From a phage, in the sequence record PZ296778.1: DNA of 49,526 nucleotides. One strand, given 5' to 3'. Made by a program: the position numbers and the translations under genes. Positions 6,769 to 27,289 of this stretch are shown one piece after another (position 1 is the first letter of the stretch; each line of letters begins with the position of its first letter). The notes below the pieces were generated by a model. That model did not search any database, was not told where the DNA came from, and saw only the letters and a list, made by a program, of their open reading frames with translations.

Positions 6769-6782
6769 ATGGAGGAAGCAAA

Positions 6783-7754
6783 ATGGCTAAAAAATACGAT
6801 GAATTAGATGCTACCATTGTAGCAAATCATTTACAGGTTCAGGGCGTTAAGGGTGATGCTTTTGATATGGGTATTTGGACCGCTCAAGAGCTACACAAGA
6901 TCCGTTCAACGGCATACGAGAAAGAGTATCCGGCAGGTTCCGCACTTCGCGTATTCCCTGTAACAAACGAGCTTTCTGATACTGATAAGACTTTTGAGTA
7001 TCAGACTTTTGATAAGGTTGGCTACGCGAAAATTATCGCCGACTACACCGACGATCTGCCGACCGTGGACGCGCTGATGACTTCTGAATTTGGCAAGGTG
7101 TTCCGCCTGGGTAACGCTTTTCCGATCTCCATTGATGAGATTAAAGCAGGTCAGCGAACTGGCAAGAGCCTGTCAACTCGCAAGGCTAACGCTGCGCAAA
7201 ATGCGCATGATCAGTTGATTAACTTCCTGGTGTTCAAAGGTTCCAAGCCTCATAAGATCGTTTCCGTTTTCGATCACCCTAACCTTACGAAAATTGTTTC
7301 TAAAGGATGGATGAGCCAGGATGGAAACACCAAGTTCCCTGATGTGGCAAGCGATGAACTGGAGGCTGCAATCGAGACTATCGAGGAAGTAACAAAAGGT
7401 CAGCACCGCGCGACTAACATCCTGATCCCGCCGTCCATGCGTAAAGTCTTGACGGTTCGAATGGAAAATACCACTGAAAGTTATCTTGAATACTTCCAGA
7501 AGCAAAACGGCGGAATCACTATCGACTCTATCGCAGAGCTTGAGGATATTGACGGCAAAGGTACGAAAGGTTGCTTGGTTTACGAAAAAGATCCAATGAA
7601 CATGAGCATTGAGATTCCAGAAGCGTTTAACATGCTTCCGGCGCAGCCAAAAGACCTTCATTTCAAGGTTCCTTGCACTTCCAAGTGTACTGGCCTTACG
7701 ATTTACCGTCCGTTTACGATGGTGCTTATTACTGGCTTGAAAAAGTCAGTTTAA
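6783..7754 (+). CDS. major capsid protein
   Basis: 323 aa; strong RBS ggagga; bracketed by intrinsic terminators; size and position typical of an HK97-fold major capsid protein. Confidence 0.7.
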   Translation: MAKKYDELDATIVANHLQVQGVKGDAFDMGIWTAQELHKIRSTAYEKEYPAGSALRVFPVTNELSDTDKTFEYQTFDKVGYAKIIADYTDDLPTVDALMTSEFGKVFRLGNAFPISIDEIKAGQRTGKSLSTRKANAAQNAHDQLINFLVFKGSKPHKIVSVFDHPNLTKIVSKGWMSQDGNTKFPDVASDELEAAIETIEEVTKGQHRATNILIPPSMRKVLTVRMENTTESYLEYFQKQNGGITIDSIAELEDIDGKGTKGCLVYEKDPMNMSIEIPEAFNMLPAQPKDLHFKVPCTSKCTGLTIYRPFTMVLITGLKKSV

Positions 7755-7766
7755 TTAGATAACATG

Positions 7767-7794
7767 GGGAGCCTTAAGGGTTCCCCTTTTTTTT
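7767..7794 (+). terminator. intrinsic terminator after major capsid gene
   Basis: GGGGAGCC-ttaa-GGGTTCCCC hairpin followed by T8. Confidence 0.7.
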
Positions 7795-7812: not shown

Positions 7813-8079
7813 ATGAGCAAAACTTTAAAACTTAAAGTAACTGGCGTTTGCATGATTATTATGGACGGTAAGCGTTATCACCCTGGTGATGAGATTGAAA
7901 TTGAATCTGATCGTATTAATGATTCCGCAATTGAATACCTGATCGCTCGCGGCGATGTGGAAGTTAAAGACAATTCCGAAATTAACGAGCAAATCAAGGA
8001 GAAAGCGGAGAAGAAGCGCAAAAAAGATCCTACAGAGGGCAAGAGCCGCAAAGAGCTAGAGGATGGCGGCGAATATTAA
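7813..8079 (+). CDS. hypothetical protein (head-associated)
   Basis: 88-aa ORF with RBS after the capsid terminator; lysine/glutamate-rich C-terminus. Confidence 0.4.
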
Positions 8080-8125
8080 TAATTGGGGCGCTTATGCGCC
8101 CCTTGTCATATCTGGAGAAAACAAA

Positions 8126-8545
8126 ATGGTAGATGAATTTTACACAGACGCTGAAATCGTTCAGCAAATCGTAAAGTTGGCCCCACCAATGCAGCAGGTT
8201 GATCCCGATTTAATTGTGGCATGGATTGAGCTTGCTAAAGAATTTGTTTGCAAAAAACGGTTTAAAAACTCATACCCGAAAGCGGTTGCGCTTTACACTC
8301 TTCACCTTATGACCTTAGACGGGGCAATGAAACAGGAAGGTGAAAGCGTAGAAAGCTATTCCCGCCGCGTTGCATCGTTCACTCTGACTGGTGAGTTTAG
8401 TCAGACGTTTGATCGAATTTCTTCCGATACAAGCGGAAAGCAGATCCGACAAACGCCGTGGGGCAAAATGTACGAAGTGTTAAACCGTAAGCACGGTGGC
8501 GGCTTTGGACTTGTAACTGGATTGCGCCGGAGATGTTGCCGATGA
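8126..8545 (+). CDS. head-tail connector/adaptor protein (putative)
   Basis: Start moved to ATG after RBS ggagaaaacaaa (track start 8063 lies inside a hairpin); position between capsid and tail genes. Confidence 0.4.
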
Positions 8546-8916
8546 ATTACAATGAGATTGCAAGAATGGCTACTGCTGGGATTAACTTTTTCAGCGACGC
8601 TAACGGTATGTTTAAGTGCATCACGCAGCAGGGAGGGGTTGAGATTATCGGCGGAGAGGAAGTTACCAAGCCTGAGATTTCAGTGATGATAAAGGGGCTT
8701 GTTAGATCTCCGAGGACTAGAGAGGTTGACGGTGAAACGATCCGAGTAACCGACAAGTTGGGGGTATTCACCAATGAAACTGAGATCAAAAATGGTTATC
8801 AGATTGAAATTGATGGCGATCGTTATGTTGTCGTTGAAGCAAGACCAGTCAGACAGACTAACATCACGGCAGCTTATCGCCCGATATTAAGGAGGATTGC
8901 AGTGCATGGCGGATAA
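8533..8916 (+). CDS. head-tail joining protein (putative)
   Basis: 127 aa; overlapping start with upstream gene; positional call. Confidence 0.35.
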
Positions 8917-9349
8917 TTATAAGATCAGGGAATTTCACGGTGATATAAGCAGATGGATTGATTCAGTAAGCAGCGGCCTTGTTGATTGCGTTGAAATGTT
9001 CGCGACAAACGTCCACGAGGATCTTGTAAAGCGTTCGCCAGTTGATACGGGCCGATATAAAGCTAACTGGCAGGTAACAGCAAACAAGCCGCCGCTATAT
9101 GCTCTCAATCAATACGATCGCGATGGTAGTAAAACCATTGCAGAAGGCAAGCGAGCAATATATGCAATCATGCGGGGCGGTGGCGCGGTGCGGTCAATCT
9201 ATTTTTCAAACATGCTTATTTACGCCAATGCGCTTGAATACGGGCATTCAAAACAAGCGCCGTCCGGCGTGCTGGGAATCGTGGCGGTAAAGCTGCGATC
9301 CTATATGACTAAGGCAATAAAGGATTCGAGGGCAAAAAATGCACTATGA
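8897..9349 (+). CDS. neck/tail protein (putative)
   Basis: 150 aa; overlapping upstream gene; positional call. Confidence 0.35.
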   Translation: MQCMADNYKIREFHGDISRWIDSVSSGLVDCVEMFATNVHEDLVKRSPVDTGRYKANWQVTANKPPLYALNQYDRDGSKTIAEGKRAIYAIMRGGGAVRSIYFSNMLIYANALEYGHSKQAPSGVLGIVAVKLRSYMTKAIKDSRAKNAL

Positions 9350-9740
9350 TTTAATGTTAGCGGCAAGAAAGGCGCTGGCGGCGGAATATGAATCACGATT
9401 CAAGATCGCCTATGAAAACGTTGATTTTGTTCCGCCTGGTGATGGTTCGATGTGGTTAAAATTTGACTACATGGAAGCCGACACAGATCGCATATCTCTT
9501 GATAGAAAATGCGTTTCTTATATCGGATTGGTTCAGGTTGGAATTGTTATGCCTCCTGGCGGCGGCACTGATAAAGCGCGTTTGCTGGCTAAAGAGATTG
9601 CGAGATTTTTCTATGATGGTAGAATGTTTGAAACTGGCTATATTAGCGATGGGGCAAAGGTCCACACATTACTAAAAAGTGAAACAGGTTGGTTCTTACC
9701 GATCCGTTTCAGTGTTAGGCTTGACACAAAGGAGGAATAA
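9339..9740 (+). CDS. tail completion protein (putative)
   Basis: 133 aa; directly upstream of the putative major tail gene. Confidence 0.35.
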   Translation: MHYDLMLAARKALAAEYESRFKIAYENVDFVPPGDGSMWLKFDYMEADTDRISLDRKCVSYIGLVQVGIVMPPGGGTDKARLLAKEIARFFYDGRMFETGYISDGAKVHTLLKSETGWFLPIRFSVRLDTKEE

Positions 9741-9742
9741 TC

Positions 9743-10405
9743 ATGCACTTGCCTAATGGTTCTCAAATTTTCATCGGCGTTAATATGGGTGAGCCAATTA
9801 GCGCGACTCAAATCAGCAATGCTGATAATCCTGTTTTTACAACCAAAAACACTCAAAGCATCAAAAAAGGCGCTTATGTTCTTATTGAAATATCTTCTTG
9901 GGGCAAACTTGTTAGTCGAGTGCTTCGAGTTAAGGAAGTATCAGATAATGCAAGTGTTACTCTTGAGGGTGTTAGCACTAAAGATACAAACGTATTTCCA
10001 GAAGGACAGAACACAGCAACTTTCCGAGAAGTGAAATCTTGGGTAGAGGTTCCTTGCGTACAGGATCTTGCGCAGGACGGCGGCGAGCAACAGTATTACA
10101 CTTATCAGTGTTTGGCTGATGACCATGAGCAGCAGTTGCCGACCTACAAGAGCGCGGTTTCTCTTACCTACACTTTCGCTCATGAATATGATAACCCGAT
10201 TTATCCGATCTTGCGCGAGGCTGAGGAATCCGGCGACGTAACCGCTTTGCGTATGTACGTGCCGAAAGCTAAAGAGATGCGTTGCTGGGCTGGCGTATTG
10301 TCTTTTAATGACATTCCGCAAACAACTATGAACGAAATGGAAACTGTTTCCCTTTCTGTATCTCTGAAAGGCCGATTCACGTTCTTACCTTCCGACGTTA
10401 AGTAA
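9743..10405 (+). CDS. major tail protein (putative)
   Basis: 220 aa; very strong RBS aaggagga; followed by terminator; immediately upstream of the chaperone and tape measure genes. Confidence 0.5.
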   Translation: MHLPNGSQIFIGVNMGEPISATQISNADNPVFTTKNTQSIKKGAYVLIEISSWGKLVSRVLRVKEVSDNASVTLEGVSTKDTNVFPEGQNTATFREVKSWVEVPCVQDLAQDGGEQQYYTYQCLADDHEQQLPTYKSAVSLTYTFAHEYDNPIYPILREAEESGDVTALRMYVPKAKEMRCWAGVLSFNDIPQTTMNEMETVSLSVSLKGRFTFLPSDVK

Positions 10406-10410
10406 AACAA

Positions 10411-10431
10411 GGGGCGTTGCGCCCCTTTTTT
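10411..10431 (+). terminator. intrinsic terminator after major tail gene
   Basis: GGGGCG-ttg-CGCCCC hairpin followed by T6. Confidence 0.7.
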
Positions 10432-10470
10432 CATTCCTGTAAAATCAATCTATCAAATAAATTAATTCCA

Positions 10471-10490
10471 CTTTTAACAAAAAGTGCTAT
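10471..10490 (-). promoter_or_regulatory. conserved intergenic motif copy R2 (inverted)
   Basis: CTTTTAACAAAAAGTGCTAT directly abutting the RBS of the G-like chaperone gene. Confidence 0.6.
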
Positions 10491-10504
10491 AAGGAGATCT
10501 TAAG

Positions 10505-10822
10505 ATGGCAAAGATGAAACTAACGTTAGGCCCACTGCCTGATTTTAAGCTGCCTGTTTCTTTCGTGCTTCCAAATGGTGATGAGCAAGTTATTGTTTTT
10601 ACCGTGCGCCACAAGAAGGCAAGCGAAATTCACGAACGATACACAGCAGAAAAGCCGATGAGCGACGTAGAAATGATCACCTTCCTTGCTTCCGGTTGGG
10701 ATCTGGAAGATGAATTTAACGAGGAAAACGTTGCTAAATTGCTGGATTATTACCCGTCTGCGTCATTATCGCTGACTGGTCATTATATGAAAGCACTTGC
10801 GGGGCAGCGGGTAAAAAACTAA
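10505..10822 (+). CDS. tail assembly chaperone (G-like)
   Basis: 105 aa directly upstream of the tape measure gene; ends at a slippery A_AAA_AAC heptamer. Confidence 0.7.
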   Translation: MAKMKLTLGPLPDFKLPVSFVLPNGDEQVIVFTVRHKKASEIHERYTAEKPMSDVEMITFLASGWDLEDEFNEENVAKLLDYYPSASLSLTGHYMKALAGQRVKN

Positions 10823-11139
10823 AGCGGGCGGTTTACCTGTTTTACCTCAAGCCGCCAACTGACGCACAATTAGAGGCCGTCGGCCTATCCCGTTCAGACT
10901 ACGAAGGGGAGGAGCCGCCGGAGGTAATTTTTGATGAATCAATGTTTCAATCTTGGGATCTGTTTTGCGCTATGCAGACGCAATGGAGATCGACTAGCGG
11001 CAGTGTGTATGGGTTCGACTATAACGTTTTGCCTATGCTTTTTGACATTTACAAGATTGAGGATCGGGAGATGGCGCTAAATGATTTGCGCATCATGGAA
11101 CAAAAGGCGCTAGAAATGATTCATTCAAACAAAACATAA
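10505..11139 (+). CDS. tail assembly chaperone GT-like fusion (-1 programmed frameshift product)
   Basis: The -1 frame from 10819 is open with no stop for 120 nt and in frame with the track ORF 10942-11139; slippery site A_AAA_AAC at 10813-10819. Confidence 0.6.
10813..10819 (+). other. -1 ribosomal frameshift slippery heptamer A_AAA_AAC
   Basis: X_XXY_YYZ pattern in the zero frame of the G-like ORF, 1 nt before its stop codon. Confidence 0.6.
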
Positions 11140-11159
11140 GCGCCGCGAGGCGCTTTTTT
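11139..11159 (+). terminator. intrinsic terminator after chaperone GT region
   Basis: GCGCC-gcga-GGCGC hairpin followed by T6, just upstream of the tape measure RBS. Confidence 0.55.
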
Positions 11160-11178
11160 AATATCTGGAGGTTTTAAA

Positions 11179-13860
11179 ATGGCTGAAAAATACGCTGGCC
11201 TAACGCTAGGCGTTGACGTGTCGCAGGTCAACAATGCTGTTAAATCATTGCAGCAATTCAAGAAGGCAAACGACGACGCAAAAAAAAGCGTTAATGAATT
11301 TGTTGATTCTGAGGTTGTGGCCCGACAGCAAGCAAAACAGCTTGCCGAAGAACTGGCGCGCCAGAAAGCAGAATTTAAGAAAATCCAGGAGTCAATTGAT
11401 CCCACTGCATCAAAGATGGATAAGCTGCGAAAGGCAGCGACACAGCTTGATGCGCTATGGAAAAAGGGCGTTGTTCCTGATCAGACTTTTTTTGAGCTTG
11501 GGGCAATTCTTGAGACGCAGCAAAACAAGCTGATCGCAACCAAAAAAGCGATGACAGAGGAAGGCCGCGCGGCGCTTGAGGAATCAAAGAACAAGGCGCG
11601 TGCAGCGGAAGAGGCTAAAAAATTCGTCCAGGCTTTGCGTGAGCAGGAAGAAGCAGCAGGAAAAAGCAAGTCTGAATTGCTGGAAATGAAAGCGGCACAG
11701 CTTGGAGTTAGCCAGGAGGCAGCACCTTACATCGCAAGGCTGAAAGAGCAGGAAAAGCAGATCCAGAAACTTGGGATTTCTACAGGCCAATACAAACAAG
11801 CAATGGCGCAATTGCCAATGCAGATCACAGACGTGGTGACTTCACTTGCTTCTGGTATGCCAGTTTGGTTGGTCGCAGTCCAGCAGGGTGGGCAGATCAA
11901 GGATTCTTTTGGTGGTGCATCCAATGCTTTAAAAGCGTTGCTATCTTTCCTGAATCCGGTAAACGTGGCGTTTGGCTTGCTTTCCGGCACGCTGGCAATT
12001 GCTGCATATAATGCCTACAAAGCACAGACAGAGCTTGAGGCAATTAAAAAAACCGTTCAGGAAACAACTGGCTTGAGTGGTGAGTTTGCCGAAAAGATTG
12101 CTATAGGAATCCAGGAGCTTTCCGACAAGACAGGCGAAAGCGCCGAAGATCTGGCAAAGGCTTACATAACAACGAAAGACGGCGCGAGCGAGGCGATTAA
12201 AAAACTGGTTGACGTTGGGATGACTTATGATGACGCAAAAAAGAAAGTCAACGAGTACAAGGGCGCGTCTAGCTTTGTCAGCTTGAATAACGAAATTGCA
12301 AACCACAAAAACAAAGTCCTTGAGTTGGGCGATTCGTGGTATGAGGTTTTGAAAGCGAAGCGTGATTACGCTTCCCCGTCCGGCGGCCTGTTAGGTAAGG
12401 AGCTTGGCTATGTTAACCCTATGCTTAAGTTTGCACTTAACACTTATGAAGACATTGGAAAGGTCGTAAAAGATGCGAATAAGGACATGGCGGAACGAGC
12501 GGAGCGAATCGACAAAGAAAACCTGGCCTTAAACAGAGTGCGCGCAGCACAGGAGGCTTTAAACAAAGCCATTGAGGATCAGAAAAATGTGGCGCGTTCG
12601 GCTGATGAAGAACTGAAAAAGCGCGCGGCTGAAAACGTGGAGTTTAGGCGCAAAGAGCTTGAGGAAATCAAGAAGCAGGAGCAGAAAAAGAAAGAGGCTA
12701 AAGGGGGAATAGTTCGCGGCCCTACTGAGCAGCTTGATAAAGAGTTGTACGTTTTAAAGGCGCAACTGGAAACTCTTAAAGAGCATCGCACTGTTAACGA
12801 TGTTATTTCTCGCCAGCGTAAATCTTTATGGAGCATCGAAAAGCAGATCGAGATCCTGGAGAATGCGCAGAGCAAGCGTAAATTGACCGGAGCGGAACAG
12901 GCGCTACTAAACGAGCAAAAGGCCGTTCTTGAAATGGCAAGACAAAAAGCTGAGCTAGGGGATCAGATTGTTTTGCAGGAGCGCAAAAACAAGCTGGAGC
13001 AAGATAGTCTTAAGTTTATCCGTGAAACTGAGGCTGCTATTGATGCGATTGGCCTTAAGCAACTTGGCTACACTGAAAAGCAGATCGAGCGTGAGCTAGA
13101 GTTACGCAAGCTGCGCACCGACTACGAGGCGCAAGGCGGAAGCGTTAGCGACGAAGTTTTTCAGCAAATGGAGACGAAACTTAAGCTGTATTACCAGGCA
13201 CAAGACGAGGCGCAAGGCAACTGGTTAGCCGGAGCAAAGAACGCATGGGAGCTATTCGCGGAAGATGCAAACAATGCCTATGGCAATGTTCAGCAGATCG
13301 CAAGCGAGGCGTTAAACGGCCTTACAAACCAATTAGCGAATTTTATCGCTACTGGCAAGGCAAACTTTAAAGACTTCTCGACGGCTATCATCAAAATGAT
13401 TATCCAGATGATCACGAAAATGGTCGTCTTTAATGCGTTATCTGGCCTGATGGGTGGTCAAACCTGGACGATGGGGAGCTTGCTTAAGAATATTGGCGGA
13501 TTTGCTGGCGGTGGATACACTGGAGACGGCGGGAAGTATGAGCCAGCCGGAATTGTCCATAAAGGTGAATTTGTCATGACGAAGGAGGCGACGCAGCGTA
13601 TCGGGGTAGGAAACTTGTACCGCATGATGCGAGGCTATGCTAACGGCGGCGTTGTTGGTAGTTCCGGCTATACTGGCGGTGGCGCTGTAACTGGTGGAGC
13701 ACCTCAATTTAACATCGGCGGGATTGATGTTAGCATCACTAACGGAAACGATCCGAAGGGCATCGAAACTGGTGTTAAGATGATCTTTACTGATATGATT
13801 AAACGTTCCTGTATGCAGGGCGGCGAGGTTTACGAATTTGTTATGAGCAAGCGAGGTTGA
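11179..13860 (+). CDS. tail tape measure protein
   Basis: 893 aa; long coiled-coil-rich region; glycine-rich C-terminus; follows the G/GT pair. Confidence 0.85.
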   Translation: MAEKYAGLTLGVDVSQVNNAVKSLQQFKKANDDAKKSVNEFVDSEVVARQQAKQLAEELARQKAEFKKIQESIDPTASKMDKLRKAATQLDALWKKGVVPDQTFFELGAILETQQNKLIATKKAMTEEGRAALEESKNKARAAEEAKKFVQALREQEEAAGKSKSELLEMKAAQLGVSQEAAPYIARLKEQEKQIQKLGISTGQYKQAMAQLPMQITDVVTSLASGMPVWLVAVQQGGQIKDSFGGASNALKALLSFLNPVNVAFGLLSGTLAIAAYNAYKAQTELEAIKKTVQETTGLSGEFAEKIAIGIQELSDKTGESAEDLAKAYITTKDGASEAIKKLVDVGMTYDDAKKKVNEYKGASSFVSLNNEIANHKNKVLELGDSWYEVLKAKRDYASPSGGLLGKELGYVNPMLKFALNTYEDIGKVVKDANKDMAERAERIDKENLALNRVRAAQEALNKAIEDQKNVARSADEELKKRAAENVEFRRKELEEIKKQEQKKKEAKGGIVRGPTEQLDKELYVLKAQLETLKEHRTVNDVISRQRKSLWSIEKQIEILENAQSKRKLTGAEQALLNEQKAVLEMARQKAELGDQIVLQERKNKLEQDSLKFIRETEAAIDAIGLKQLGYTEKQIERELELRKLRTDYEAQGGSVSDEVFQQMETKLKLYYQAQDEAQGNWLAGAKNAWELFAEDANNAYGNVQQIASEALNGLTNQLANFIATGKANFKDFSTAIIKMIIQMITKMVVFNALSGLMGGQTWTMGSLLKNIGGFAGGGYTGDGGKYEPAGIVHKGEFVMTKEATQRIGVGNLYRMMRGYANGGVVGSSGYTGGGAVTGGAPQFNIGGIDVSITNGNDPKGIETGVKMIFTDMIKRSCMQGGEVYEFVMSKRG

Positions 13861-14213
13861 TAATGAAGCTGGATCAGTTTAAGTGGTGTACGCAGGTTCA
13901 GAATGGTGGCGGGGCCATGACGTCATCGAATAACGATCGAGAGATTGCATTCGGTAACGGATACACACAGGTAGCATCTGGAGGTTTTAACACAATCCGG
14001 CGAGAGTTCAGCATTGTTTACGCTGGGCTTGATTACAGAGATGTTGTCAAGTTCCTGAATGAGCACAGGCTAAAACCTTTCTTGTGGATCATGCCAGATG
14101 GAAGCCCTGGATTGTTTAGGGTGAAAAGCGGTAGCGTCGGCCTTACTCCATTGTCGCCAACCGTTCAGGAAGTAAAAGCCACTTTTACGGAACAATTTAC
14201 ATCAATGCAGTAA
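13857..14213 (+). CDS. minor tail protein (lambda M-like)
   Basis: 118 aa; start overlaps tape measure stop (ATGA); conserved order TMP-M-L-K-I-J. Confidence 0.55.
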   Translation: MIMKLDQFKWCTQVQNGGGAMTSSNNDREIAFGNGYTQVASGGFNTIRREFSIVYAGLDYRDVVKFLNEHRLKPFLWIMPDGSPGLFRVKSGSVGLTPLSPTVQEVKATFTEQFTSMQ

Positions 14214-14218
14214 TTTAA

Positions 14219-14242
14219 AGCCGCCTTTGTGCGGCTTTTTTC
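14219..14242 (+). terminator. intrinsic terminator after lambda M-like gene
   Basis: AGCCGC-ctttgt-GCGGCT hairpin followed by T6. Confidence 0.6.
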
Positions 14243-14275
14243 TTGATGTTACAATGAGCAAAAAGGAGGTAGAAA

Positions 14276-15037
14276 ATGGCTAATAAAGAATCAGGTAGAG
14301 TTGAATTTGAGAACTGCCTACAAAGTTTGTACCCAGGCGAAATTATAACGCTTGTAGAGATTGACGGGACGAAGTTCGGAGCAAATATTTACCGATTTCA
14401 CAATGAGAACATCTCTTATACTGCCGAAGAATTAATGCAAGCGCAGCAAACCGGAATATTGCCGCCGAAAGATATTATTTTTCAGGGTGAGGTTTACGGA
14501 GCGCGGCCTTTCGGTGTGAGCGGTATTAACTTCACAAGTAACGGCAGGGCAGATAAGCCTCAGCTTATAGTGTCAAACCTTGACAGCAGGGTGAGCGCCA
14601 TGATCAGAAATTACAATGGCATGATGCAAGCAAAGGTGACTTTCTGGATAACGGCAAAGGAATTTATCGGAGAAGGCGGAGCAATCAAAGATGGCGCTTA
14701 CAGAAAATTGGTTTATTACATTGAGCGCCCAAGCCAGTACAATAGAGAGATAGCGAAATTTGATCTAACATCGCCTTACGATATGGATGGACTGATGATC
14801 CCGCCGCGCATCACTCAAAGCGTTTGCTATTGGGCGCAAAGGGGATGGTACAGGAGCGGAAAGGGTTGCTCTTATAACGGATCGGCAATGTTCGATAAAG
14901 ACAATAAGCCAGTAACAGATCCATCACAAGACTATTGCGCCGGAACTGTAACGGCTTGCAAATTGAGGTTCGGTCAGCAAAACGAATTGGATTTCGGCGG
15001 TTGCGCGGTTGCTTCACTGCTACGGAGGAATCAATAA
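14276..15037 (+). CDS. minor tail protein (lambda L-like)
   Basis: 253 aa; C-terminal cysteine cluster (CYWAQ...GCSYNG...CAG...AC) as in L-type Fe-S tail tip proteins. Confidence 0.6.
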   Translation: MANKESGRVEFENCLQSLYPGEIITLVEIDGTKFGANIYRFHNENISYTAEELMQAQQTGILPPKDIIFQGEVYGARPFGVSGINFTSNGRADKPQLIVSNLDSRVSAMIRNYNGMMQAKVTFWITAKEFIGEGGAIKDGAYRKLVYYIERPSQYNREIAKFDLTSPYDMDGLMIPPRITQSVCYWAQRGWYRSGKGCSYNGSAMFDKDNKPVTDPSQDYCAGTVTACKLRFGQQNELDFGGCAVASLLRRNQ

Positions 15038-15768
15038 TGATTAGTGCAAAAATTAAACTTGAAATAATGCAGCACGTTAAAGAGGAATACCCTAAAGAGG
15101 CTTGCGGCGTCATAACTCAAAAGTCACGGGTACAGAAATATCACCGCATAACCAACGTGCATGACGATCCAGAAAATCATTTTGAAATGGACGCCGTAGA
15201 ATACGCTGAATCGCTCGACAAAGGCGAATTAATCGCGGTGGTGCATTCCCATTGCGGGGATGGTGCTAGCACGATACCGAGCGCGCACGACTCATGTATG
15301 TGCGATGAAATGGGTGTGTCGTGGATTATAGTGTCATGGCCCGAAGGTGATATGAGAATTGTCGAGCCGCAGGAGAGGCCGCTTATCGGTCGCCCGTGGT
15401 CGCTGGGGTCGTTCGATTGCTGGGGTCTTATCATGGCATGGCATAAACAGCACGGAGTAGTATTGAATGACTTCCGAAAGCCTTACGAGTGGTGGAAGTC
15501 AGAATATGGTGAAAATCTTTACCAGGATAATTATTTGAAAGAGGGATTTGTTGAAACTAACGAGCCTCCAAAACCTGGTGATATGGTGATTATGCAGCTA
15601 TCATCGCCAGTCTGGAATCATGCGGGGATTTATTTGGGTAACAATCAGCTATTACATCATGCGTTTGGAAAGCTATCTCGCATTGACTTGTATTCTGGAT
15701 GGTATCAGGAGCACACTGTAAAAATTTGCCGACATAAGGATCTGAAATATGACATTGAAAGTAATTAA
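15037..15768 (+). CDS. tail assembly protein (lambda K-like, JAB/MPN plus NlpC/P60-like)
   Basis: Start at MISAK (TAATG overlap with L-like gene); metal-binding motif HSHCGDGAS; Cys/His pattern downstream. Confidence 0.6.
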   Translation: MISAKIKLEIMQHVKEEYPKEACGVITQKSRVQKYHRITNVHDDPENHFEMDAVEYAESLDKGELIAVVHSHCGDGASTIPSAHDSCMCDEMGVSWIIVSWPEGDMRIVEPQERPLIGRPWSLGSFDCWGLIMAWHKQHGVVLNDFRKPYEWWKSEYGENLYQDNYLKEGFVETNEPPKPGDMVIMQLSSPVWNHAGIYLGNNQLLHHAFGKLSRIDLYSGWYQEHTVKICRHKDLKYDIESN

Positions 15769-16345
15769 GCTATCTGGTTCCCTGGGGCGTAGATTTGGCG
15801 TCTTTCACAAAATGGCGGTTGACTCATACCCCGAAGCAATACGCGCGCTATCTTCCCAGGTTGAAGGGTTCAAAGACTACATGCAAAGCGAAGTAGGATC
15901 GCGCATGAAGTATGCTGTATTCGTTGACGGTAAAAACGTTGGTCAGCATGATGAAAAATCATGGAAGTGCGCGCGAGAGGTTAGAATAATTCCCGTTCCA
16001 ACTGGTTCTAAGTCCGGCGGCCTGTTCAATGTTGTTTTTGGCGCTGTAATTATGGCTACTGCGTTCATTACTGGTGGTGCAAGCCTTGCGGCTATGGGCG
16101 CTTTTGCATCTTCCGCATTTATGATGGGTGGTGCTATCGCGCTGGGGGGTGTCATGCAAATGATTTCGCCGCAGCAGGGCGGAATGAAACTGCAAAGCCA
16201 ATCAGCAGAAAACAGGCCTTCTTACGCTTTCGGCGGTGCAGTAAATACCACGGCGGCAGGTTATCCGGTTCCTTTGCCATATGGATATAGGACGGTAGGC
16301 GGCGCGATCTGGTCGGCTGGAAGCTACGCAGAAGATAAAGCATAA
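15749..16345 (+). CDS. tail assembly protein (lambda I-like)
   Basis: 198 aa; glycine/alanine-rich hydrophobic C-terminal half; lies between K-like and J-like genes; terminator downstream. Confidence 0.55.
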   Translation: MTLKVIKLSGSLGRRFGVFHKMAVDSYPEAIRALSSQVEGFKDYMQSEVGSRMKYAVFVDGKNVGQHDEKSWKCAREVRIIPVPTGSKSGGLFNVVFGAVIMATAFITGGASLAAMGAFASSAFMMGGAIALGGVMQMISPQQGGMKLQSQSAENRPSYAFGGAVNTTAAGYPVPLPYGYRTVGGAIWSAGSYAEDKA

Positions 16346-16352
16346 AAAAATA

Positions 16353-16374
16353 CCCGCCTTGCGCGGGTTTTTTT
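16353..16374 (+). terminator. intrinsic terminator after lambda I-like gene
   Basis: CCCGC-cttg-GCGGG hairpin followed by T7. Confidence 0.65.
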
Positions 16375-16423
16375 GTGCCTTTATAATGTGCAAACCAAGA
16401 AACAGCACAAAAGGTTAAAAGTC

Positions 16424-19400
16424 ATGGCTAAATATATGATAAGCGGCAGTAAGGGAGGCGGTCAAAAGCCCTACGTGCCAAAAGAGATGGAAGATAACCT
16501 GATCTCGATAAACAAGATTAAAGTTTTGCTGGCTGTATCTGATGGCGAGTGCGATCCAGATTTTACGTTGCGTGATCTTTATCTTGATGATGTTCCGGTT
16601 ATTGCCAGCGATGGCACTGTTAACTACGAGGGAGTTACGGCTGAATATCGACCAGGCACGCAGACGCAAGATTACATCCAGGGTTTTACTGACACATCAA
16701 GTGAGGTTACAGTTGCCAGAGATATTACCGGAGACAATCCTTATGTTATTTCTGTTACAAATAAAAATCTATCTGCGGTAAGAATAAAGATCCTGATGCC
16801 AGTAGGCATTAAAACAGAGGATAACGGCGATCTTGTTGGCGTAAGGGTTGAGTATGCCGTAGATATGGCTGTTGATGGCGGTTCTTATAGCGAGGTTATG
16901 AGAGATGTAATTGACGGCAAGACAAGATCAGGATACGACCGCAGCAGAAGGATTGATCTTCCTAAGTTTGATGAGCGCGTTTTAATCCGAGTAAAGCGAC
17001 TGACTCCAGACAGCACATCTTCAAAGGTGACTGATAAAATCAAGCTGCAAAGTTACGCTGAGGTTGTTGATGCAAAATTCCGCTATCCTCTGACTGGACT
17101 TGTATTCGTAGAATTTGACAGCGAATTGTTTCCTACGCAAATCCCTAACATTTCTATAAAAAAGAAATGGAAGATTATTAATGTGCCAAGCAACTATGAT
17201 CCAATATCAAGAGAATATCACGGGTCATGGGATGGGACTTTTAAAAAAGCGTGGTCAAATAATCCTGCTTGGGTTCTTTATGATCTGGTGACAAATCAGC
17301 GTTATGGACTTGATCAGCGAGAGTTAGGAATACAGATCGACAAGTGGAGCTTATACGAGGCGGGCGTTTACTGCGATCAGAAAGTTCCAGACGGTAAAGG
17401 CGGCACTGAGCCTCGCTACCTATGCGATGTGGTGATTCAGAATCAAGTTGAGGCTTATCAGCTAATCCGTGACATTTGCTCAATCTTTCGCGGAATGAGT
17501 TTTTGGAATGGTGAGAGCTTATCAATCGTGATTGATAAGCCGCGCGATCCATCATACGTGTTTACTAATGAAAACGTCATCAACGGTGATTTTCAGTACA
17601 CAAACGCAAGCGAAAAAAGCATGTACACGCAGTGTAACGTGACGTTTGACGACGAACAAAACATGTATCAGCAGGACGTAGAGGGGGTTTTTGATACTGA
17701 GGCGGCATTACGATTTGGATACAACCCAACAAGCATTACAGCGATCGGGTGTACGCGCAGGAGCGAAGCGAATCGTCGCGGTCGTTGGGTTTTGAAAACA
17801 AACCTTAGAAGCACTACTGTAAACTTTGCTACCGGACTAGAGGGGATGATTCCATCAATAGGTGATGTTATTGCTATCGCTGATAATTTTCAGAGTAGCA
17901 ACCTAACGTTAAACCTATCGGGCCGAGTAATGGAAGTTTCAGGGCTGCAGGTTTTCGTTCCGTTTAAGGTTGATGCTCGCCCTGGTGATTTTATTATCAT
18001 CAACAAGCCGGACGGCAAGCCAGTTAAGCGCACGATCTCAAAGGTTAGCGCAGACGGAAAAACCATTGAGTTAAATATTGGATTTGGTTTTGATGTTAAG
18101 CCTGATACTGTTTTTGCGATTGACCGTACTGATCTTGCGTTGCAGCAATACGTTGTGACAACCATCAGCAAGGGTGATGACGAAAACGAGTTTACCTATT
18201 CAATCACGGCTGTAGAGTACGATCCGAACAAATACGACGAGATTGATTATGGAGTAAACATTGATGACAGACCGACTTCAATTGTTCAGCCTGACGTGAT
18301 GGCAGCGCCTGAGAACGTTAAGATCTCATCTTATTCTCGCGTCGTGCAGGGTGTTAGCGTTGAGACTATGGTTGTTTCATGGGATAAGGTTCCTTACGCA
18401 TCGCTTTATGAAATGCAGTGGCGAAAAGGTGATGGTAACTGGCTGAATACGCCGCAGACCGCTAACAAAGAGATAGAGGTAGAAGGGATTTACTCTGGCA
18501 ACTACCAAGTAAGGGTGAGATCCGTTTCTGCAAGCGGTAACGCTTCCCCGTGGTCAAAGATTGCAACCGCCACTCTGACAGGTAAAGTTGGCGAGCCAGG
18601 AGCGCCGATTAATCTTACGGCTTCTGATAATGAAGTTTTTGGCATTCGTGTCAAATGGGGTATGCCGGAAGGATCAGGCGATACGGCTTACATTGAGCTT
18701 CACCAATCGCCAGACGGAACGGTTGAAAACTCAAGTCTGCTTACGCTGATTCCATATCCTCAATATGAGTATTGGCATAGCACGTTACCAGCGGGGCAAG
18801 TTGTATGGTATAGAATCCGCAGCGTTGACAGAATAGGCAACGTTTCAAGCTGGACTGACTTTGTTCGCGGCATGGCGTCAGATGACGTTGAATCTGTTTT
18901 GGGCGACATTCTGGACAAGATTTTTGATACAGAAGCTGGTCAAGAAATCAAAGAGAACGCCATAGACAGTGCCAATAAAATCAAAGACCAGGCGCAATCA
19001 ATCATACAGAACGCGTTGGCAAATGATGCAGATGTGAAGTGGACACGAGTGCAAAACGGAAAGCGCAAGGCTGAATATGGTCATGCTCTTGAGCTTATCG
19101 CCAATGAAACAGAAGCGCGCGTAACTCAAATCGAAGAGTTAAGGGCTTCAATTGATGGCGAGATAACATCAAGCATCAAGACAGTGCAGGAGGCAATTGC
19201 CACTGAATCAGAGACGCGAGCGACTCAAATTCAGCAGCTTGATTCTAAATTCACAAAAGAAATCGACGGCGTGCGCAAGGATACTTCTGCAAGCATTAGC
19301 GATGTAAGGCAGACAATCACTAACGAGTCAGAAGCGCGCGCTCAGGCCGTTCAGCAGCTTGACGCTAAGTTCACGAAAGAGATAAACGACCTTGACGGAG

Positions 19401-20002
19401 TTATCAAAACAGAAGTCGAGGCTAACATCTCAGAAGTGAAACAGGCGATCGCCAATGAGACAGAGGCAAGGGTTCAGGCTGACCAGGCATTAACAGCACG
19501 ATTTGGCGACGTTGAATCTGCATTGGTTGAAAAGTTGGATTCTTGGGCGAGCGTTGATTCAGTTGGCGCTAAATACGCTATGAAACTTGGCCTTACTTAC
19601 AAAGGCCAGCAATACAGCGCAGGAATGGTGATGCAGCTTTCGCAGGGTTCATCCGGCCTTATCTCGCAAATTTTGTTTGATGCTAACAGGTTCGCCATTA
19701 TGACTAGCTCTACTGGAGGGACTTTTACTTTGCCTTTCGTGGTTGAGAATAATCAGGTTTTCATTAATAGTCTTTTGGTGAAGAACGGTTCAATCACTAA
19801 TGCGATGATTGGTAATGTGATTCAGTCAAACAACTTTGTTCAAAACCAGCAAGGATGGAGGCTTGATAAAAACGGAATCTTTGAGAATTACGGATCAACG
19901 CCAGGAGAAGGAGCTACTAAATTCACCAATGAGGGATTGAAGGTAAAAGATGCAAACGGAGTATTGAGGGTTGAAGTCGGAAGGATTACCGGAAGCTGGT
20001 AA
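16424..20002 (+). CDS. central tail fibre / host specificity protein (lambda J-like)
   Basis: About 1190 aa; recognisable similarity to lambda J (VPSNYDPISREYHGSWDGTFKKAWSNNPAWVLYDL, GVYCDQKVPDGKGGTEPRY); start moved to MAKYMISG because track start 16373 lies inside the upstream terminator. Confidence 0.9.
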   Translation: MAKYMISGSKGGGQKPYVPKEMEDNLISINKIKVLLAVSDGECDPDFTLRDLYLDDVPVIASDGTVNYEGVTAEYRPGTQTQDYIQGFTDTSSEVTVARDITGDNPYVISVTNKNLSAVRIKILMPVGIKTEDNGDLVGVRVEYAVDMAVDGGSYSEVMRDVIDGKTRSGYDRSRRIDLPKFDERVLIRVKRLTPDSTSSKVTDKIKLQSYAEVVDAKFRYPLTGLVFVEFDSELFPTQIPNISIKKKWKIINVPSNYDPISREYHGSWDGTFKKAWSNNPAWVLYDLVTNQRYGLDQRELGIQIDKWSLYEAGVYCDQKVPDGKGGTEPRYLCDVVIQNQVEAYQLIRDICSIFRGMSFWNGESLSIVIDKPRDPSYVFTNENVINGDFQYTNASEKSMYTQCNVTFDDEQNMYQQDVEGVFDTEAALRFGYNPTSITAIGCTRRSEANRRGRWVLKTNLRSTTVNFATGLEGMIPSIGDVIAIADNFQSSNLTLNLSGRVMEVSGLQVFVPFKVDARPGDFIIINKPDGKPVKRTISKVSADGKTIELNIGFGFDVKPDTVFAIDRTDLALQQYVVTTISKGDDENEFTYSITAVEYDPNKYDEIDYGVNIDDRPTSIVQPDVMAAPENVKISSYSRVVQGVSVETMVVSWDKVPYASLYEMQWRKGDGNWLNTPQTANKEIEVEGIYSGNYQVRVRSVSASGNASPWSKIATATLTGKVGEPGAPINLTASDNEVFGIRVKWGMPEGSGDTAYIELHQSPDGTVENSSLLTLIPYPQYEYWHSTLPAGQVVWYRIRSVDRIGNVSSWTDFVRGMASDDVESVLGDILDKIFDTEAGQEIKENAIDSANKIKDQAQSIIQNALANDADVKWTRVQNGKRKAEYGHALELIANETEARVTQIEELRASIDGEITSSIKTVQEAIATESETRATQIQQLDSKFTKEIDGVRKDTSASISDVRQTITNESEARAQAVQQLDAKFTKEINDLDGVIKTEVEANISEVKQAIANETEARVQADQALTARFGDVESALVEKLDSWASVDSVGAKYAMKLGLTYKGQQYSAGMVMQLSQGSSGLISQILFDANRFAIMTSSTGGTFTLPFVVENNQVFINSLLVKNGSITNAMIGNVIQSNNFVQNQQGWRLDKNGIFENYGSTPGEGATKFTNEGLKVKDANGVLRVEVGRITGSW

Positions 20003-21267: not shown

Positions 21268-21636
21268 TTGTTATTTTTTGTTTTCCGGTGTTATCGAATT
21301 TAAGACGGCGTAAATTTAGCGCAAAATTTAGACAACATAAGATCAATAAACAATCAATAAAATAGATATATACATATAAAATCAATAGTTTATTTATTTA
21401 TGTATGTATATTTGTTTTTTCTTGTTATCTGCGTTTCTTGTGGTTTTGGTTGTTTGTGGTGATTTTTCTTTCTGAGTATCTGTATGTGCCATCATTCATG
21501 TGTATGTATATAATCCGGCGTATCTGAGAGAACATGGGAACAAGAAAAATAACACACATTAATCATTAACTTATGAGTCAAATCTGTTTTCTTGCCATCT
21601 GAGAACGTTTAGAAAACAGAAAAAACAAAACAGCTA

Positions 21637-22750: not shown

Positions 22751-22825
22751 TAAACTAAACAAATAGCTAAACTTTTATAATGGTTGGTGATATAATTCGC
22801 CAACCAGATAACGGGAGAATGAGAA

Positions 22826-23083: not shown

Positions 23084-23740
<657 letters not shown>

Positions 23741-23745
23741 TAAAC

Positions 23746-23766
23746 GGGGCGCTTGCGCCCCTTTTG
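23746..23766 (+). terminator. intrinsic terminator / hairpin after Erf gene
   Basis: GGGGCGC-ttg-CGCCCC hairpin followed by TTTTG; near-duplicate of the element at 8085-8104. Confidence 0.5.
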
Positions 23767-23783
23767 TCATAGGAGAAAACAAA

Positions 23784-24236
23784 ATGCACGTTATTACAGG
23801 TGAGATTCGAAAAGAGCCAAAAGTAAAGCAAATGCCTAACGGCAGCACGCTATATGTTATTGATCTTTCCGAGCGATACAAAGACCGAGAAGGAAATTGG
23901 CAGTATACAAACTATGTGTTTTTCTTTAACGCGAAAACAGACGGCCTGAATGGTTGGTATGCCGAGGCGTTCCAGGTAGGCAAGGTTGTTTCTGTTTCCT
24001 GCGATACCTTGCGAGTTGAAACGCGAGAATACAACGGAAAGATTTACAGCACCGTGCAGCCTGGCGGATTTGCAAACTTGCTATTTAGCCAGAGAGGTGA
24101 AAGCCAGCAACAATATCAGCAGCGAACGCAAGGAGGCTGGGGGCAACCACAACAGCAACAGCAACAAAATACTCAACAGCAGCCGCAGCAAAGCAATCAG
24201 CCTCCGATTGACTTTGACGATGATATACCATTCTGA
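23784..24236 (+). CDS. ssb: single-stranded DNA-binding protein
   Basis: OB-fold-like N-terminus, Gln/Gly-rich linker, C-terminal acidic tail DFDDDIPF; start at MHVITGE after RBS ggagaaaacaaa. Confidence 0.85.
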   Translation: MHVITGEIRKEPKVKQMPNGSTLYVIDLSERYKDREGNWQYTNYVFFFNAKTDGLNGWYAEAFQVGKVVSVSCDTLRVETREYNGKIYSTVQPGGFANLLFSQRGESQQQYQQRTQGGWGQPQQQQQQNTQQQPQQSNQPPIDFDDDIPF

Positions 24237-24246
24237 TAACAAAAAG

Positions 24247-24270
24247 CCCCGCATATGCGGGGCATTTTTT
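24247..24270. terminator. bidirectional terminator between SSB (+) and tail fibre (-) genes
   Basis: CCCCGC-atat-GCGGGG hairpin with A-run upstream and T-run downstream. Confidence 0.75.
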
Positions 24271-27252: not shown

Positions 27253-27269
27253 TTGTAAAATCCTCCTAA

Positions 27270-27289
27270 ATAGCACTTTTTGCTAATGA
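27270..27289 (+). promoter_or_regulatory. conserved intergenic motif copy F1 (variant)
   Basis: ATAGCACTTTTTGCTAATGA abutting the RBS of the minus-strand tail fibre gene. Confidence 0.55.

What the first reader, a model, noticed from the sequence alone, without database searches (positions are those of the whole stretch)
8085..8128. Near-identical hairpin plus RBS module duplicated upstream of the connector gene and the SSB gene
GGGGCGCTTATGCGCCCC...GTCATA...GGAGAAAACAAAATG at 8085-8128 closely matches GGGGCGCTTGCGCCCC...GTCATAGGAGAAAACAAAATG at 23746-23786. The same 5' leader is reused on a late structural gene and an early replication gene, and both hairpins resemble those that follow the conserved motif. 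This suggests modular shuffling or a shared post-transcriptional control element.
Basis: seen in the sequence. Interest (0 to 1): 0.35.

Follow-up and report, generated by a model that had tools for sequence, protein, structure and literature searches.

The report
Duplicated terminator hairpin and ribosome site
Two gene junctions in this T1-like coliphage carry almost the same stem-loop and ribosome-binding leader, but each is an ordinary, family-wide terminator-type hairpin followed by a start site, and their near-identity arose only within the genus Warwickvirus.

Summary
Sites 8077-8128 and 23738-23786 align with 45 of 47 ungapped columns identical and three short indels. The local score is 66, against a maximum of 33 in 100 surrogate genomes.

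The window is a Warwickvirus (Drexlerviridae, T1-like). In about 90 related loci, both junctions (DUF7444 gene|head-tail adaptor, and erf|ssb) carry a GC stem-loop in nearly every lineage. The two hairpins are therefore ancient positional orthologues, not a recently moved module.

Site 1 is the canonical intrinsic terminator already listed as T36B in phage TLS. Site 2 is a conserved hairpin with very stable tetraloops, and most lineages lack a U-tract after it.

High site1-site2 similarity (scores 54-66) occurs only in genomes with the Warwick-type ssb leader. It is 28 or less in the 52 other distinct pairs listed. Only about 22-25 nt between hairpin and ATG (GTCATA...GGAGAAAACAAAATG) were homogenised, most simply by short-patch gene conversion. 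Within the genus the two copies then drift independently, and mosaic breakpoints do not fall on them. I found no support for a shuffling cassette or a shared regulator.

By-product: a sigma-70-like promoter inside erf, conserved at synonymous sites, lies about 25 nt upstream of the ssb hairpin.

The parts
7766..7786 (+). Strong terminator-like hairpin (9 bp, then T8) after the major capsid gene 6783-7754. Together with site 1 it brackets the small DUF7444 gene 7813-8079.
   Evidence: The homologous element is listed as T36A in TLS.
8077..8082 (+). TAATAA: the stop codon of the DUF7444 gene (8077-8079) plus a second in-frame stop.
8085..8102 (+). Site 1 stem-loop GGGGCGC-TTAT-GCGCCCC (7 bp, -15.6 kcal/mol). 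It is the positional orthologue of a family-wide intrinsic terminator.
   Evidence: Annotated as a terminator in SA12KD and Sweeny and listed as T36B in TLS.
8103..8113 (+). Site 1 tail TTGTCATATCT. It is a weakened U-tract (UUGU) followed by an AU-rich spacer. The segment 'TTTGTCATATCTGGAG' is ancestral and shared with Hanrivervirus, Changchunvirus and K50-like phages. Webervirus has TTTTTCATATC[AT]GGAG.
8114..8128 (+). Site 1 Shine-Dalgarno GGAG, 8-nt A-rich spacer AAAACAAA, and ATG of the adaptor gene (8126-8545).
10409..10427 (+). Third, partial relative: the terminator after the major tail gene, AAGGGGCGTTGCGCCCCTT followed by TTTTCAT. It shares its hairpin and tail with site 2 (score 39, against 37 for site 1) but not the RBS part.
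23685..23714 (+). Sigma-70-like promoter inside the 3' end of erf: TTGACA, 18 nt, TAAAAT. The predicted start is near 23721, about 25 nt before the site 2 hairpin.
23738..23743 (+). TAATAA: the stop codon of erf (23738-23740) plus a second stop.
23746..23761 (+). Site 2 stem-loop GGGGCG-CTTG-CGCCCC (6 bp, -11.2 kcal/mol). It is identical to the hairpin at the same place in some Hanrivervirus-type relatives, so it is orthologous rather than copied.
23762..23771 (+). Site 2 tail TTTTGTCATA. The U-tract is shared with Hanrivervirus-type relatives. GTCATA is found only in the Warwick-type leader and matches site 1.
23772..23786 (+). Site 2 Shine-Dalgarno GGAG, spacer AAAACAAA, and ATG of ssb (23784-24236).
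24246..24263 (.). Bidirectional terminator-like hairpin that closes the exoVIII-erf-ssb cluster against the converging minus-strand tail-fibre genes.

Best explanation
Each copy is an ordinary junction between two co-directional genes. It consists of the stop codons of the upstream gene, a short and very stable GC stem-loop, a U/AU-rich unstructured tail, and GGAG placed 8 nt before the ATG of the next gene. The stem-loop acts in the RNA.

Site 1 follows the small DUF7444 gene that comes after the major capsid gene. It is the family-wide intrinsic terminator. In this phage the U-tract is weak (UUGU), so it should work as a leaky attenuator and 3'-end protector. That would keep capsid-region transcripts abundant while letting some polymerases read into the head-completion and tail genes.

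Site 2 lies between erf and ssb. It is a family-wide hairpin closed by extra-stable tetraloops, and it sits in the 5' untranslated region of an ssb transcript started from a conserved promoter inside erf. In Warwick- and Hanriver-type phages it also has a U-tract. It can therefore end or attenuate transcripts and protect the erf 3' end, while the unstructured A-rich stretch keeps the ssb ribosome site open.

The near-identity of the two leaders is not an ancient shared element. Two independently old, compositionally similar junctions were homogenised over about 22-25 nt (GTCATA...GGAGAAAACAAAATG) in the Warwickvirus lineage. The most likely route is short-patch gene conversion from site 1 into site 2, plus two substitutions at site 1. 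Since then the copies have evolved independently.

Shown here: the sequence anatomy, positional orthology, pairing conservation, the lineage restriction of the similarity, and the independent drift. Inferred: termination or stabilisation activity, promoter activity, and copying rather than convergence.
For: Anatomy and chance.

Stability: the hairpins fold at -15.6 and -11.2 kcal/mol and the downstream leaders are largely unpaired.

Positional orthology: 49 of the 51 distinct site 1 leaders and most of the 49 distinct site 2 leaders contain a GC hairpin; the 2 site 1 exceptions have a misplaced start codon. Counted from the loop, the first 6 pairs (site 1, 28 distinct hairpins) and the first 5 pairs (site 2, 34 distinct hairpins) are standard pairs in every sequence. 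Changes include compensatory ones, such as GGGAGC/GCTCCC, GAGGCGC/GCGCCTC and GGGCGG/CCGCCC.

Site 1 as a terminator: 46 of 49 variants have at least 5 T in the 8 nt after the GC core. Others predict a terminator at this position in SA12KD, Sweeny and TLS, where it is T36B.

Site 2: 37 of 49 variants have 0-1 T in the first 4 nt after the stem. The loops are GAAA, GCAA, GTAA, TTCG and CTTG.

Lineage restriction: same-genome site1-site2 scores are 66, 61 and 54.5 only where the Warwick-type site 2 is present, and 28 or less in the 52 other distinct pairs listed.

Direction of copying: L011 combines a Hanriver-type site 1 with a Warwick-type site 2 and still scores 54.5. The site 1 tail is shared by several genera, whereas the Warwick site 2 tail differs from its Hanriver orthologue at 6 positions, all towards the site 1 state.

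Independent drift within the genus.

Promoter: GTTGnnn-N18-TAnAAT is present in 67 of 69 distinct erf 3' ends, with the Val codons invariant as GTT and GTA. In contrast, 18 other conserved four-fold-degenerate codons of erf show 3-4 different third bases.
Against: I found no transcript-end, transcript-start or expression data for any T1-like phage, so every activity is inferred.

The window's site 1 has only UUGU after the stem, so it may terminate very little.

Site 2 lacks a U-tract in most of the family, so 'terminator' may be the wrong label for its ancestral role. It also lies downstream of the putative ssb promoter, which makes a pure terminator role awkward.

Copying and convergent selection cannot be cleanly separated on about 25 nt. 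The baseline identity of the tails is already about 67% in the sister genus. Four leaders of this phage share GGAG-N4-CAAAATG, which points to a preferred initiation sequence.

Only about 10 Warwick-type sequences were examined.
Confidence: 0.65

Rival explanations
1. Convergence without copying. Both junctions independently evolved towards the same optimum for this phage and host: a strong GC hairpin, a short U-run, and GGAG with an 8-nt A-rich spacer ending in CAAA before ATG. The identity would then be the end point of parallel selection.
For: The tails are already 18/27 identical in the sister genus, simply from shared constraints. Four of the five RBS-spacer substitutions on the Warwick branch are changes to A. 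GGAG-N4-CAAAATG is used by four leaders (major capsid, DUF7444, adaptor, ssb) against 0.05 expected. The GGGGCG/CGCCCC stem recurs at a third terminator, 10409.
Against: GTCATA has no known role in initiation, yet it was also acquired at site 2. All of about 8 lineage-specific differences end in identity. No other pair among 55 junction pairs approaches this similarity. Site 1 has since drifted away (GGAGAAAAAAATG, GTCACA) with the phages still viable, which argues against a sharp optimum.
Confidence: 0.22
2. A shared post-transcriptional operator. The common leader is bound by one trans-acting factor, for example the phage SSB on unstructured A/U-rich RNA next to a nucleating hairpin, as T4 gp32 does on its own mRNA. 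That factor would co-regulate translation of ssb and the adaptor gene.
For: There is near-identity from the hairpin to the ATG. The site 2 leader is invariant in 9 of 10 Warwick-type sequences, the exception being SECphi27 with one extra A in the spacer, while the flanking 350 nt differ by 3-4%. A stable hairpin followed by an unstructured AU-rich stretch is the general layout of known SSB autoregulatory leaders (my own knowledge, not tested here).
Against: The sister genus and all other genera have dissimilar leaders at the two genes. Site 1 varies freely within the genus, including its spacer length and stem. No third copy exists. No Rfam family matches.
Confidence: 0.05
3. A mobile regulatory cassette that mediates modular shuffling, like the PeSL cassettes of T4-type phages. 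The repeated module would serve as a recombination point for exchanging gene blocks.
For: A repeated intergenic stem-loop module exists, and the phage encodes its own recombination system (exoVIII, Erf, SSB). Drexlerviridae are mosaic.
Against: There are only two copies, in direct orientation and 15.7 kb apart. Recombination between them would delete the neck and tail genes (8126-20002). The module holds no promoter downstream of the stem-loop. The junctions and their flanking genes are syntenic across the family. The mapped mosaic breakpoints lie inside genes, not at the modules.
Confidence: 0.03
4. A chance resemblance between two GC hairpins and two RBSs.
For: None beyond the generic composition of such junctions.
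Against: The score is 66 against surrogate maxima of 33 or less. The same pair is present in independent genomes.
Confidence: 0.01

Closest known systems
Predicted rho-independent terminators of T1-like phages: TLS 'T36B' and its neighbours, the SA12KD and Sweeny annotations, and the T1 'transcriptons' flanked by terminators (PMC11447400, section 17 and Table S1)
   Same: Site 1 is the positional and sequence orthologue of TLS T36B (gggcgc..gcgcc + T-run), located after the small gene that follows the major capsid gene. SA12KD annotates terminators at both junctions.
   Different: In this phage the U-tract of site 1 has decayed to UUGU. The site 2 hairpin is not in the TLS terminator list and is not annotated in Sweeny, because it lacks a U-tract there. 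The near-identity of the two junctions is not mentioned in the papers read here or in the record annotations seen, and it is specific to Warwickvirus.
PeSL (promoter-early stem-loop) cassettes of T4-type phages (PMC2839356, PMC4122927)
   Same: Both are short repeated intergenic modules that contain a terminator-type stem-loop, and both can undergo homologous exchange between copies.
   Different: PeSLs are composite terminator+promoter units, present in many copies in hyperplastic regions, and they flank indels and gene swaps. Here there are two copies between core genes, the module has no promoter after the stem-loop, and no breakpoints fall at the modules.
Intercistronic hairpins with extra-stable tetraloops (UUCG, GNRA, CUUG), as described in T4 intercistronic regions, and mRNA-stabilising intercistronic stem-loops (REP-type) in E. 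coli operons. This comparison rests on my own knowledge and was not checked in the paper library.
   Same: Site 2 across the family is a 5-7 bp GC stem closed by GAAA, GCAA, GTAA, TTCG or CTTG. It usually has no U-tract and sits a few nt before the next Shine-Dalgarno.
   Different: No stability or processing data exist for these phages. In Warwick and Hanriver types a U-tract is present, so termination is also possible.
Translational autoregulation of phage ssDNA-binding proteins through their own leader (T4 gp32; filamentous-phage gene V protein acting on gene II mRNA). My own knowledge.
   Same: A structured element is followed by an unstructured AU-rich stretch that covers the ribosome site of an ssb gene.
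   Different: There is no pseudoknot and no evidence of binding. The leader is not conserved in sequence between genera, and the second copy sits on an unrelated virion gene in one genus only.

Membership tests
Intrinsic (rho-independent) terminator | GC-rich stem of about 5-14 bp with a 3-8 nt loop, stable in RNA | tested here: met
   Site 1: 7 bp, loop 4, -15.6 kcal/mol. Site 2: 6 bp, loop 4, -11.2 kcal/mol.
Intrinsic (rho-independent) terminator | A run of U immediately 3' of the stem | tested here: inconclusive
   The window's site 1 has UUGUCAUA (weak). Site 2 has UUUUGUCA (acceptable). Family-wide, site 1 has at least 5 T of 8 in 46/49 variants, and site 2 has 0-1 T in the first 4 nt in 37/49.
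Intrinsic (rho-independent) terminator | Located just downstream of a stop codon, on the transcribed strand, in an intergenic region | tested here: met
   The hairpin starts 5 nt after the stop codon at both sites (3' of DUF7444 and of erf). All flanking genes are on the + strand.
Intrinsic (rho-independent) terminator | Produces RNA 3' ends and reduces downstream transcription | not testable with these tools
   No transcript mapping for T1-like phages was found.
PeSL-type mobile regulatory cassette (T4-type phages) | A composite unit: a terminator stem-loop immediately followed by an early sigma-70 promoter | tested here: not met
   After the stem-loop comes only a tail, SD and ATG. No conserved promoter lies near site 1. 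The conserved promoter at site 2 lies upstream of the hairpin, inside erf.
PeSL-type mobile regulatory cassette (T4-type phages) | Many copies that flank indels and gene replacements between close relatives | tested here: not met
   There are two full copies only. The flanks are syntenic in all loci, and the breakpoints are elsewhere.
Shared cis-regulatory RNA operator (regulon-type element) | The same element is retained on the co-regulated genes in related genomes, and the copies co-vary | tested here: not met
   Similarity is confined to Warwick-type genomes. Site 1 changes while site 2 does not.
Curated RNA families (Rfam 15) | A match at gathering threshold | tested here: not met
   There were no matches in the whole window.
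Sigma-70 promoter (for the element inside erf, 23685-23714) | TTGACA-like and TATAAT-like hexamers with a 16-18 nt spacer, conserved beyond coding needs | tested here: met
   It matches 11 of 12 positions in the window. The fixed 18-nt spacer and invariant TTG / TA-AAT occur in 67/69 distinct sequences, with synonymous sites frozen. Activity was not tested.

The most novel reading that the evidence does not exclude
In Warwickviruses, the homogenised 22-25 nt leader (UUGUCAUA..GGAGAAAACAAAAUG next to a stable hairpin) is a shared operator. Through it, one trans-acting factor couples translation of ssb to that of the head-tail adaptor gene. The most plausible factor is the phage SSB binding unstructured A/U-rich RNA nucleated at the hairpin. 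The copying event was selected because it placed a virion gene under the control of the replication/recombination state.
Probability: 0.04. Interest if true: 0.5.

Novelty: new member of a known kind. Interest (0 to 1): 0.17.

Why it matters
The finding itself matters little. It is a tidy example of how two old, functionally similar gene junctions (terminator-type hairpin plus ribosome site) can become nearly identical in one phage genus. It is also a caution that such look-alikes need not be mobile cassettes or shared regulators.

It has some practical value. First, the true starts of the adaptor and ssb genes are the SD-ATG after the hairpin, yet some GenBank records annotate longer ORFs that run through the hairpin. 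Second, the comparison shows that the erf|ssb hairpin is conserved family-wide without a U-tract, and that it lies downstream of a promoter embedded in erf and conserved at synonymous sites. This gives a concrete, testable model for how T1-like phages express SSB separately from the rest of the recombination operon.

Tried and rejected
- RNAalifold on MAFFT alignments of the two leader sets gave no usable consensus. Variable loop lengths put the 3' arms out of register.
- N-padded, loop-anchored sequences were re-shifted by MAFFT. I tallied pairs from the loop outwards in a script instead.
- The Rfam scan of the window gave no matches.
- A search for transcriptome, Term-seq or TSS data on T1-like phages found nothing relevant. 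The T1 genome paper is not held.
- I looked for a conserved promoter upstream of site 1 and found none.
- I looked for further full copies with mismatches and by sliding local alignment. There are none, only the partial relative at 10409 and the shared ATATCTGGAG in the tape-measure leader.
- The TAATAA similarity upstream of the hairpins was rejected as part of the copied unit. It belongs to the conserved C-terminal codons and stops of the two different upstream genes in all lineages.
- The hairpins themselves were rejected as recently copied. The site 1 hairpin is identical in relatives whose adaptor is only 71% identical (L024, L025), and the site 2 hairpin is identical in Hanriver-type loci (L014, L015).

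Full report
WHAT THE WINDOW IS. The window is a T1-like siphophage. A 2.5-kb stretch around site 1 is up to 99.8% identical, and a 1.6-kb stretch around site 2 up to 99.6% identical, to Escherichia phages such as Tuinin, ityhuna, swan01, tunus, JK16 and SECphi27. GenBank files close relatives under Drexlerviridae; Tempevirinae; Warwickvirus. Genes 1-20002 on the + strand are the terminase, portal, capsid, neck and tail genes. Genes 21695-24236 on the + strand are exonuclease VIII, a small ORF, Erf and SSB.

CHECK OF THE OBSERVATION.
- The best local alignment runs from the double stop TAATAA to the ATG. It has 45 of 47 ungapped columns identical and three indels.
- The score is 66. The next best place in the window scores 31.5. 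In 100 first-order Markov surrogates of the window the maxima had mean 26.7, sd 2.0 and largest 33.
- GGGGCGC-N2-8-GCGCCCC and the 15-mer GGAGAAAACAAAATG each occur only at these two places.
- Among 11 hairpin+RBS junctions of this genome, the pair scores 66, against 41.5 for the next pair and a median of 20.5.

The gene after site 1 (8126-8545) is a DUF4054/phrog_302 head-tail adaptor-type virion protein, not the portal. The gene after site 2 (23784-24236) is the SSB (phrog_44). The site 2 stem is 6 bp with a CTTG loop.

ANATOMY. Each site reads: stop codons of the upstream gene, a 2-nt gap, a GC stem-loop (-15.6 and -11.2 kcal/mol), a U/AU-rich tail, GGAG, an 8-nt A-rich spacer, and ATG. Site 1 follows a small DUF7444 gene (7813-8079). 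That gene itself follows the major capsid gene and a strong terminator at 7766-7786. Site 2 separates erf (23087-23740) from ssb. A bidirectional terminator at 24246-24263 closes the cluster. No Rfam family matches anywhere in the window.

COMPARATIVE EVIDENCE. I collected 14 GenBank stretches spanning both junctions. I also collected 80 IMG/VR loci, found with an alignment of the tail-tip K protein and 10-kb flanks. Where the contig allowed, each of these loci holds both sites; 67 of the sources held at that point, window included, yielded both leaders.

Result 1: both hairpins are ancient and positional.
- All but 2 of the 51 distinct site 1 leaders, and most of the 49 distinct site 2 leaders, have a GC hairpin at the same place. 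The 2 site 1 exceptions have a misplaced start codon.
- Counted from the loop, the first 6 (site 1, 28 distinct hairpins) or first 5 (site 2, 34 distinct hairpins) pairs are standard pairs in every sequence.
- Several true compensatory changes occur: GGGCGC/GCGCCC to GGGAGC/GCTCCC or GAGGCGC/GCGCCTC, and GGGGCG/CGCCCC to GGGCGG/CCGCCC.
- Site 1 is followed by a T-run almost everywhere (at least 5 T of 8 in 46/49). It is annotated or predicted as a rho-independent terminator in SA12KD, Sweeny and TLS, where it is T36B.
- Site 2 is different. Its loops are the extra-stable tetraloops GAAA, GCAA, GTAA, TTCG and CTTG. In 37 of 49 variants the first four bases after the stem hold 0-1 T, and the Shine-Dalgarno follows within a few bases. 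It is absent from the TLS terminator list and from the Sweeny annotation. A U-tract is present only in Warwick-, Hanriver- and a few other types.

Result 2: the similarity between the two sites is lineage-specific.
- The same-genome site1-site2 score is 66, 61 and 54.5 in genomes that carry the Warwick-type ssb leader. It is 28 or less in the 52 other distinct pairs listed, including the sister genus Hanrivervirus at 18-28.
- The site 1 hairpin GGGGCGCTTATGCGCCCC is identical in phages whose adaptor is only 71% identical (L024, L025).
- The site 1 tail TTTGTCATATCTGGAG is shared by Hanriver-, Changchun- and K50-type phages, and nearly by Webervirus.
- The site 2 hairpin GGGGCGCTTGCGCCCC is identical in Hanriver-type loci L014 and L015.

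So neither hairpin was recently copied. The stems resemble each other because this family uses a narrow kind of GC stem. A third terminator in the window, 10409-10427, is as close to the site 2 hairpin+tail (score 39) as site 1 is (37).

What is special to Warwick-type genomes is the stretch from the end of the stem to the ATG. The Warwick site 2 differs from its Hanriver orthologue at five substitutions and one indel, all towards the site 1 state. The Warwick site 1 differs from the Hanriver site 1 at two RBS positions, both towards site 2. Locus L011 carries a Hanriver-type site 1 and a Warwick-type site 2 and still scores 54.5. This shows that site 2 moved towards site 1.

Result 3: there is no concerted evolution afterwards. 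Among Warwick-type sequences, site 1 shows GCGCCCT/GTCACA (MikeNSara, EC167), a 2-nt spacer deletion (XY3, SLUR29) and a stem mismatch (SLUR29). Site 2 is unchanged in nine relatives, apart from one extra A in SECphi27.

Result 4: mosaic breakpoints against the window lie inside genes, not at either module. L011 breaks near 8300. EC167 breaks near 8800-8900 and near 18400.

A RELEVANT BY-PRODUCT. The promoter scan found TTGACA-18-TAAAAT at 23685-23714, inside the last codons of erf.
- The pattern GTTGnnn-N18-TAnAAT is present in 67 of 69 distinct erf 3' ends from all genera sampled. Examples are TTGAAG/TACAAT in T1-like phages, TTGCGA/TAGAAT in Webervirus and TTGAAA/TAAAAT in Tlsvirus.
- The spacer is always 18 nt, although its sequence and the encoded residues vary freely.
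- The two Val codons inside the hexamers are always GTT and GTA. In contrast, 18 other conserved four-fold-degenerate codons of erf show 3-4 different third bases, with entropy 1.2-1.9 bits.

This is constraint at the nucleotide level, and its form is that of a sigma-70 promoter. Transcripts would start near 23721, so the site 2 hairpin lies in the 5' untranslated region of an ssb transcript as well as at the 3' end of erf. No such conserved promoter precedes site 1. The TLS re-annotation lists only three intergenic promoters and not this one.

HOW IT MOST LIKELY WORKS. Site 1 is a leaky intrinsic terminator and 3'-end protector. It helps set the ratio between capsid-region transcripts and the downstream neck and tail genes. 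In this phage the U-tract is reduced to UUGU, so read-through should be high. Site 2 is a stable RNA hairpin between erf and ssb. In most of the family it cannot be a canonical terminator. It probably protects the erf 3' end after processing and keeps the ssb ribosome site in an unstructured context. In Warwick and Hanriver types the added U-tract may also attenuate transcription. These activities are inferred from sequence and conservation only.

The near-identity of the leaders is best explained by short-patch gene conversion. The phage encodes ExoVIII, Erf and SSB, and the similar stems and the GGAG give flanking microhomology. Convergent optimisation of initiation regions cannot be excluded. 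Four leaders share GGAG-N4-CAAAATG, and the sister genus already shows 67% identity in this stretch.

COMPARISON WITH WHAT IS KNOWN. Terminator-flanked 'transcriptons' in T1, and 21 predicted terminators in TLS, are published, and site 1 is one of them. The hairpins that follow it in the window share nothing specific with sites 1 and 2. PeSL cassettes of T4-type phages are the nearest precedent for 'modular shuffling', but their defining features are not met here.

VERDICT. Two orthologous terminator-type junctions were homogenised over about 25 nt in one genus. Novelty is low (new member of a known kind) and interest is 0.17. The most novel reading still open is a shared translational operator, at about 4% probability.

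Noticed in passing
window 23685-23714 (+), inside erf 23087-23740: A sigma-70-like promoter (TTGACA, 18 nt, TAAAAT) is embedded in the last codons of erf. The pattern GTTGnnn-N18-TAnAAT is kept in 67 of 69 distinct sequences across Drexlerviridae genera, with the two Val codons frozen as GTT and GTA while other conserved four-fold codons vary freely. This is probably a dedicated ssb promoter. It is not in the TLS promoter list.
   Followed up: partly
It is already described for TLS, T1, Rtp and Rogue1 as aaATAGCACnnnTTGnTAAAA, about 76 nt upstream of start codons, with unknown function (PMC11447400).
   Followed up: partly
window 10409-10427 (+): The terminator after the major tail gene (AAGGGGCGTTGCGCCCCTT followed by TTTTCAT) shares the GGGGCG/CGCCCC stem, the TTG loop core and the T-run+CAT with the ssb-leader hairpin. 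It is as close to that hairpin as site 1 is.
   Followed up: partly
window 11161-11170 (+) and leaders at 6771, 7801, 8114, 23772: ATATCTGGAG occurs exactly twice, in the adaptor leader and in the tape-measure leader, both right after terminator hairpins. GGAG-N4-CAAAATG is used by exactly four genes (major capsid, DUF7444, adaptor, ssb), against 0.05 expected. This suggests a preferred initiation sequence for strongly expressed genes.
   Followed up: no
window 8063-8125 and 23733-23783; GenBank OK272486 (JLBYU10), NC_047938 (SECphi27): In both genes the reading frame stays open upstream through the hairpin. Some public records annotate the adaptor and SSB from these upstream starts (483-nt and 504-nt CDS), so that the CDS runs across the stem-loop. 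Other records, and the conserved SD-ATG, point to 8126 and 23784 as the starts.
   Followed up: partly
window 37496-37717 (- strand ORF 36163-37854): A perfect tandem duplication of 111 nt (two copies, 100% identical) lies inside a 563-aa ORF.
   Followed up: no
window 24867-24989 and 26636-26761 (- strand ORFs 24269-25006 and 25297-27276): There are 63-nt tandem repeats (92% and 76% identical) inside the two tail-fibre-region ORFs.
   Followed up: no
window 21379-21470 and 40818-40900: T-rich, low-complexity repeated stretches (TTTATTTATTTATGTATGTATATTTG...; GTTTCTTGTGGTTTTGGTTGTTTGTGG...) lie in the two large divergent intergenic regions.
   Followed up: no
L011 (IMGVR_UViG_3300045988_032316) and L004 (EC167, ON185587) against window 5000-26000: Clear mosaicism. 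L011 is 70-88% identical to the window up to about 8300 and 95-100% over most of the region beyond. EC167 is 93-97% identical up to about 8800, about 65-86% from 8800 to 18400, and mostly above 90% again after that. All breakpoints lie inside genes.
   Followed up: partly
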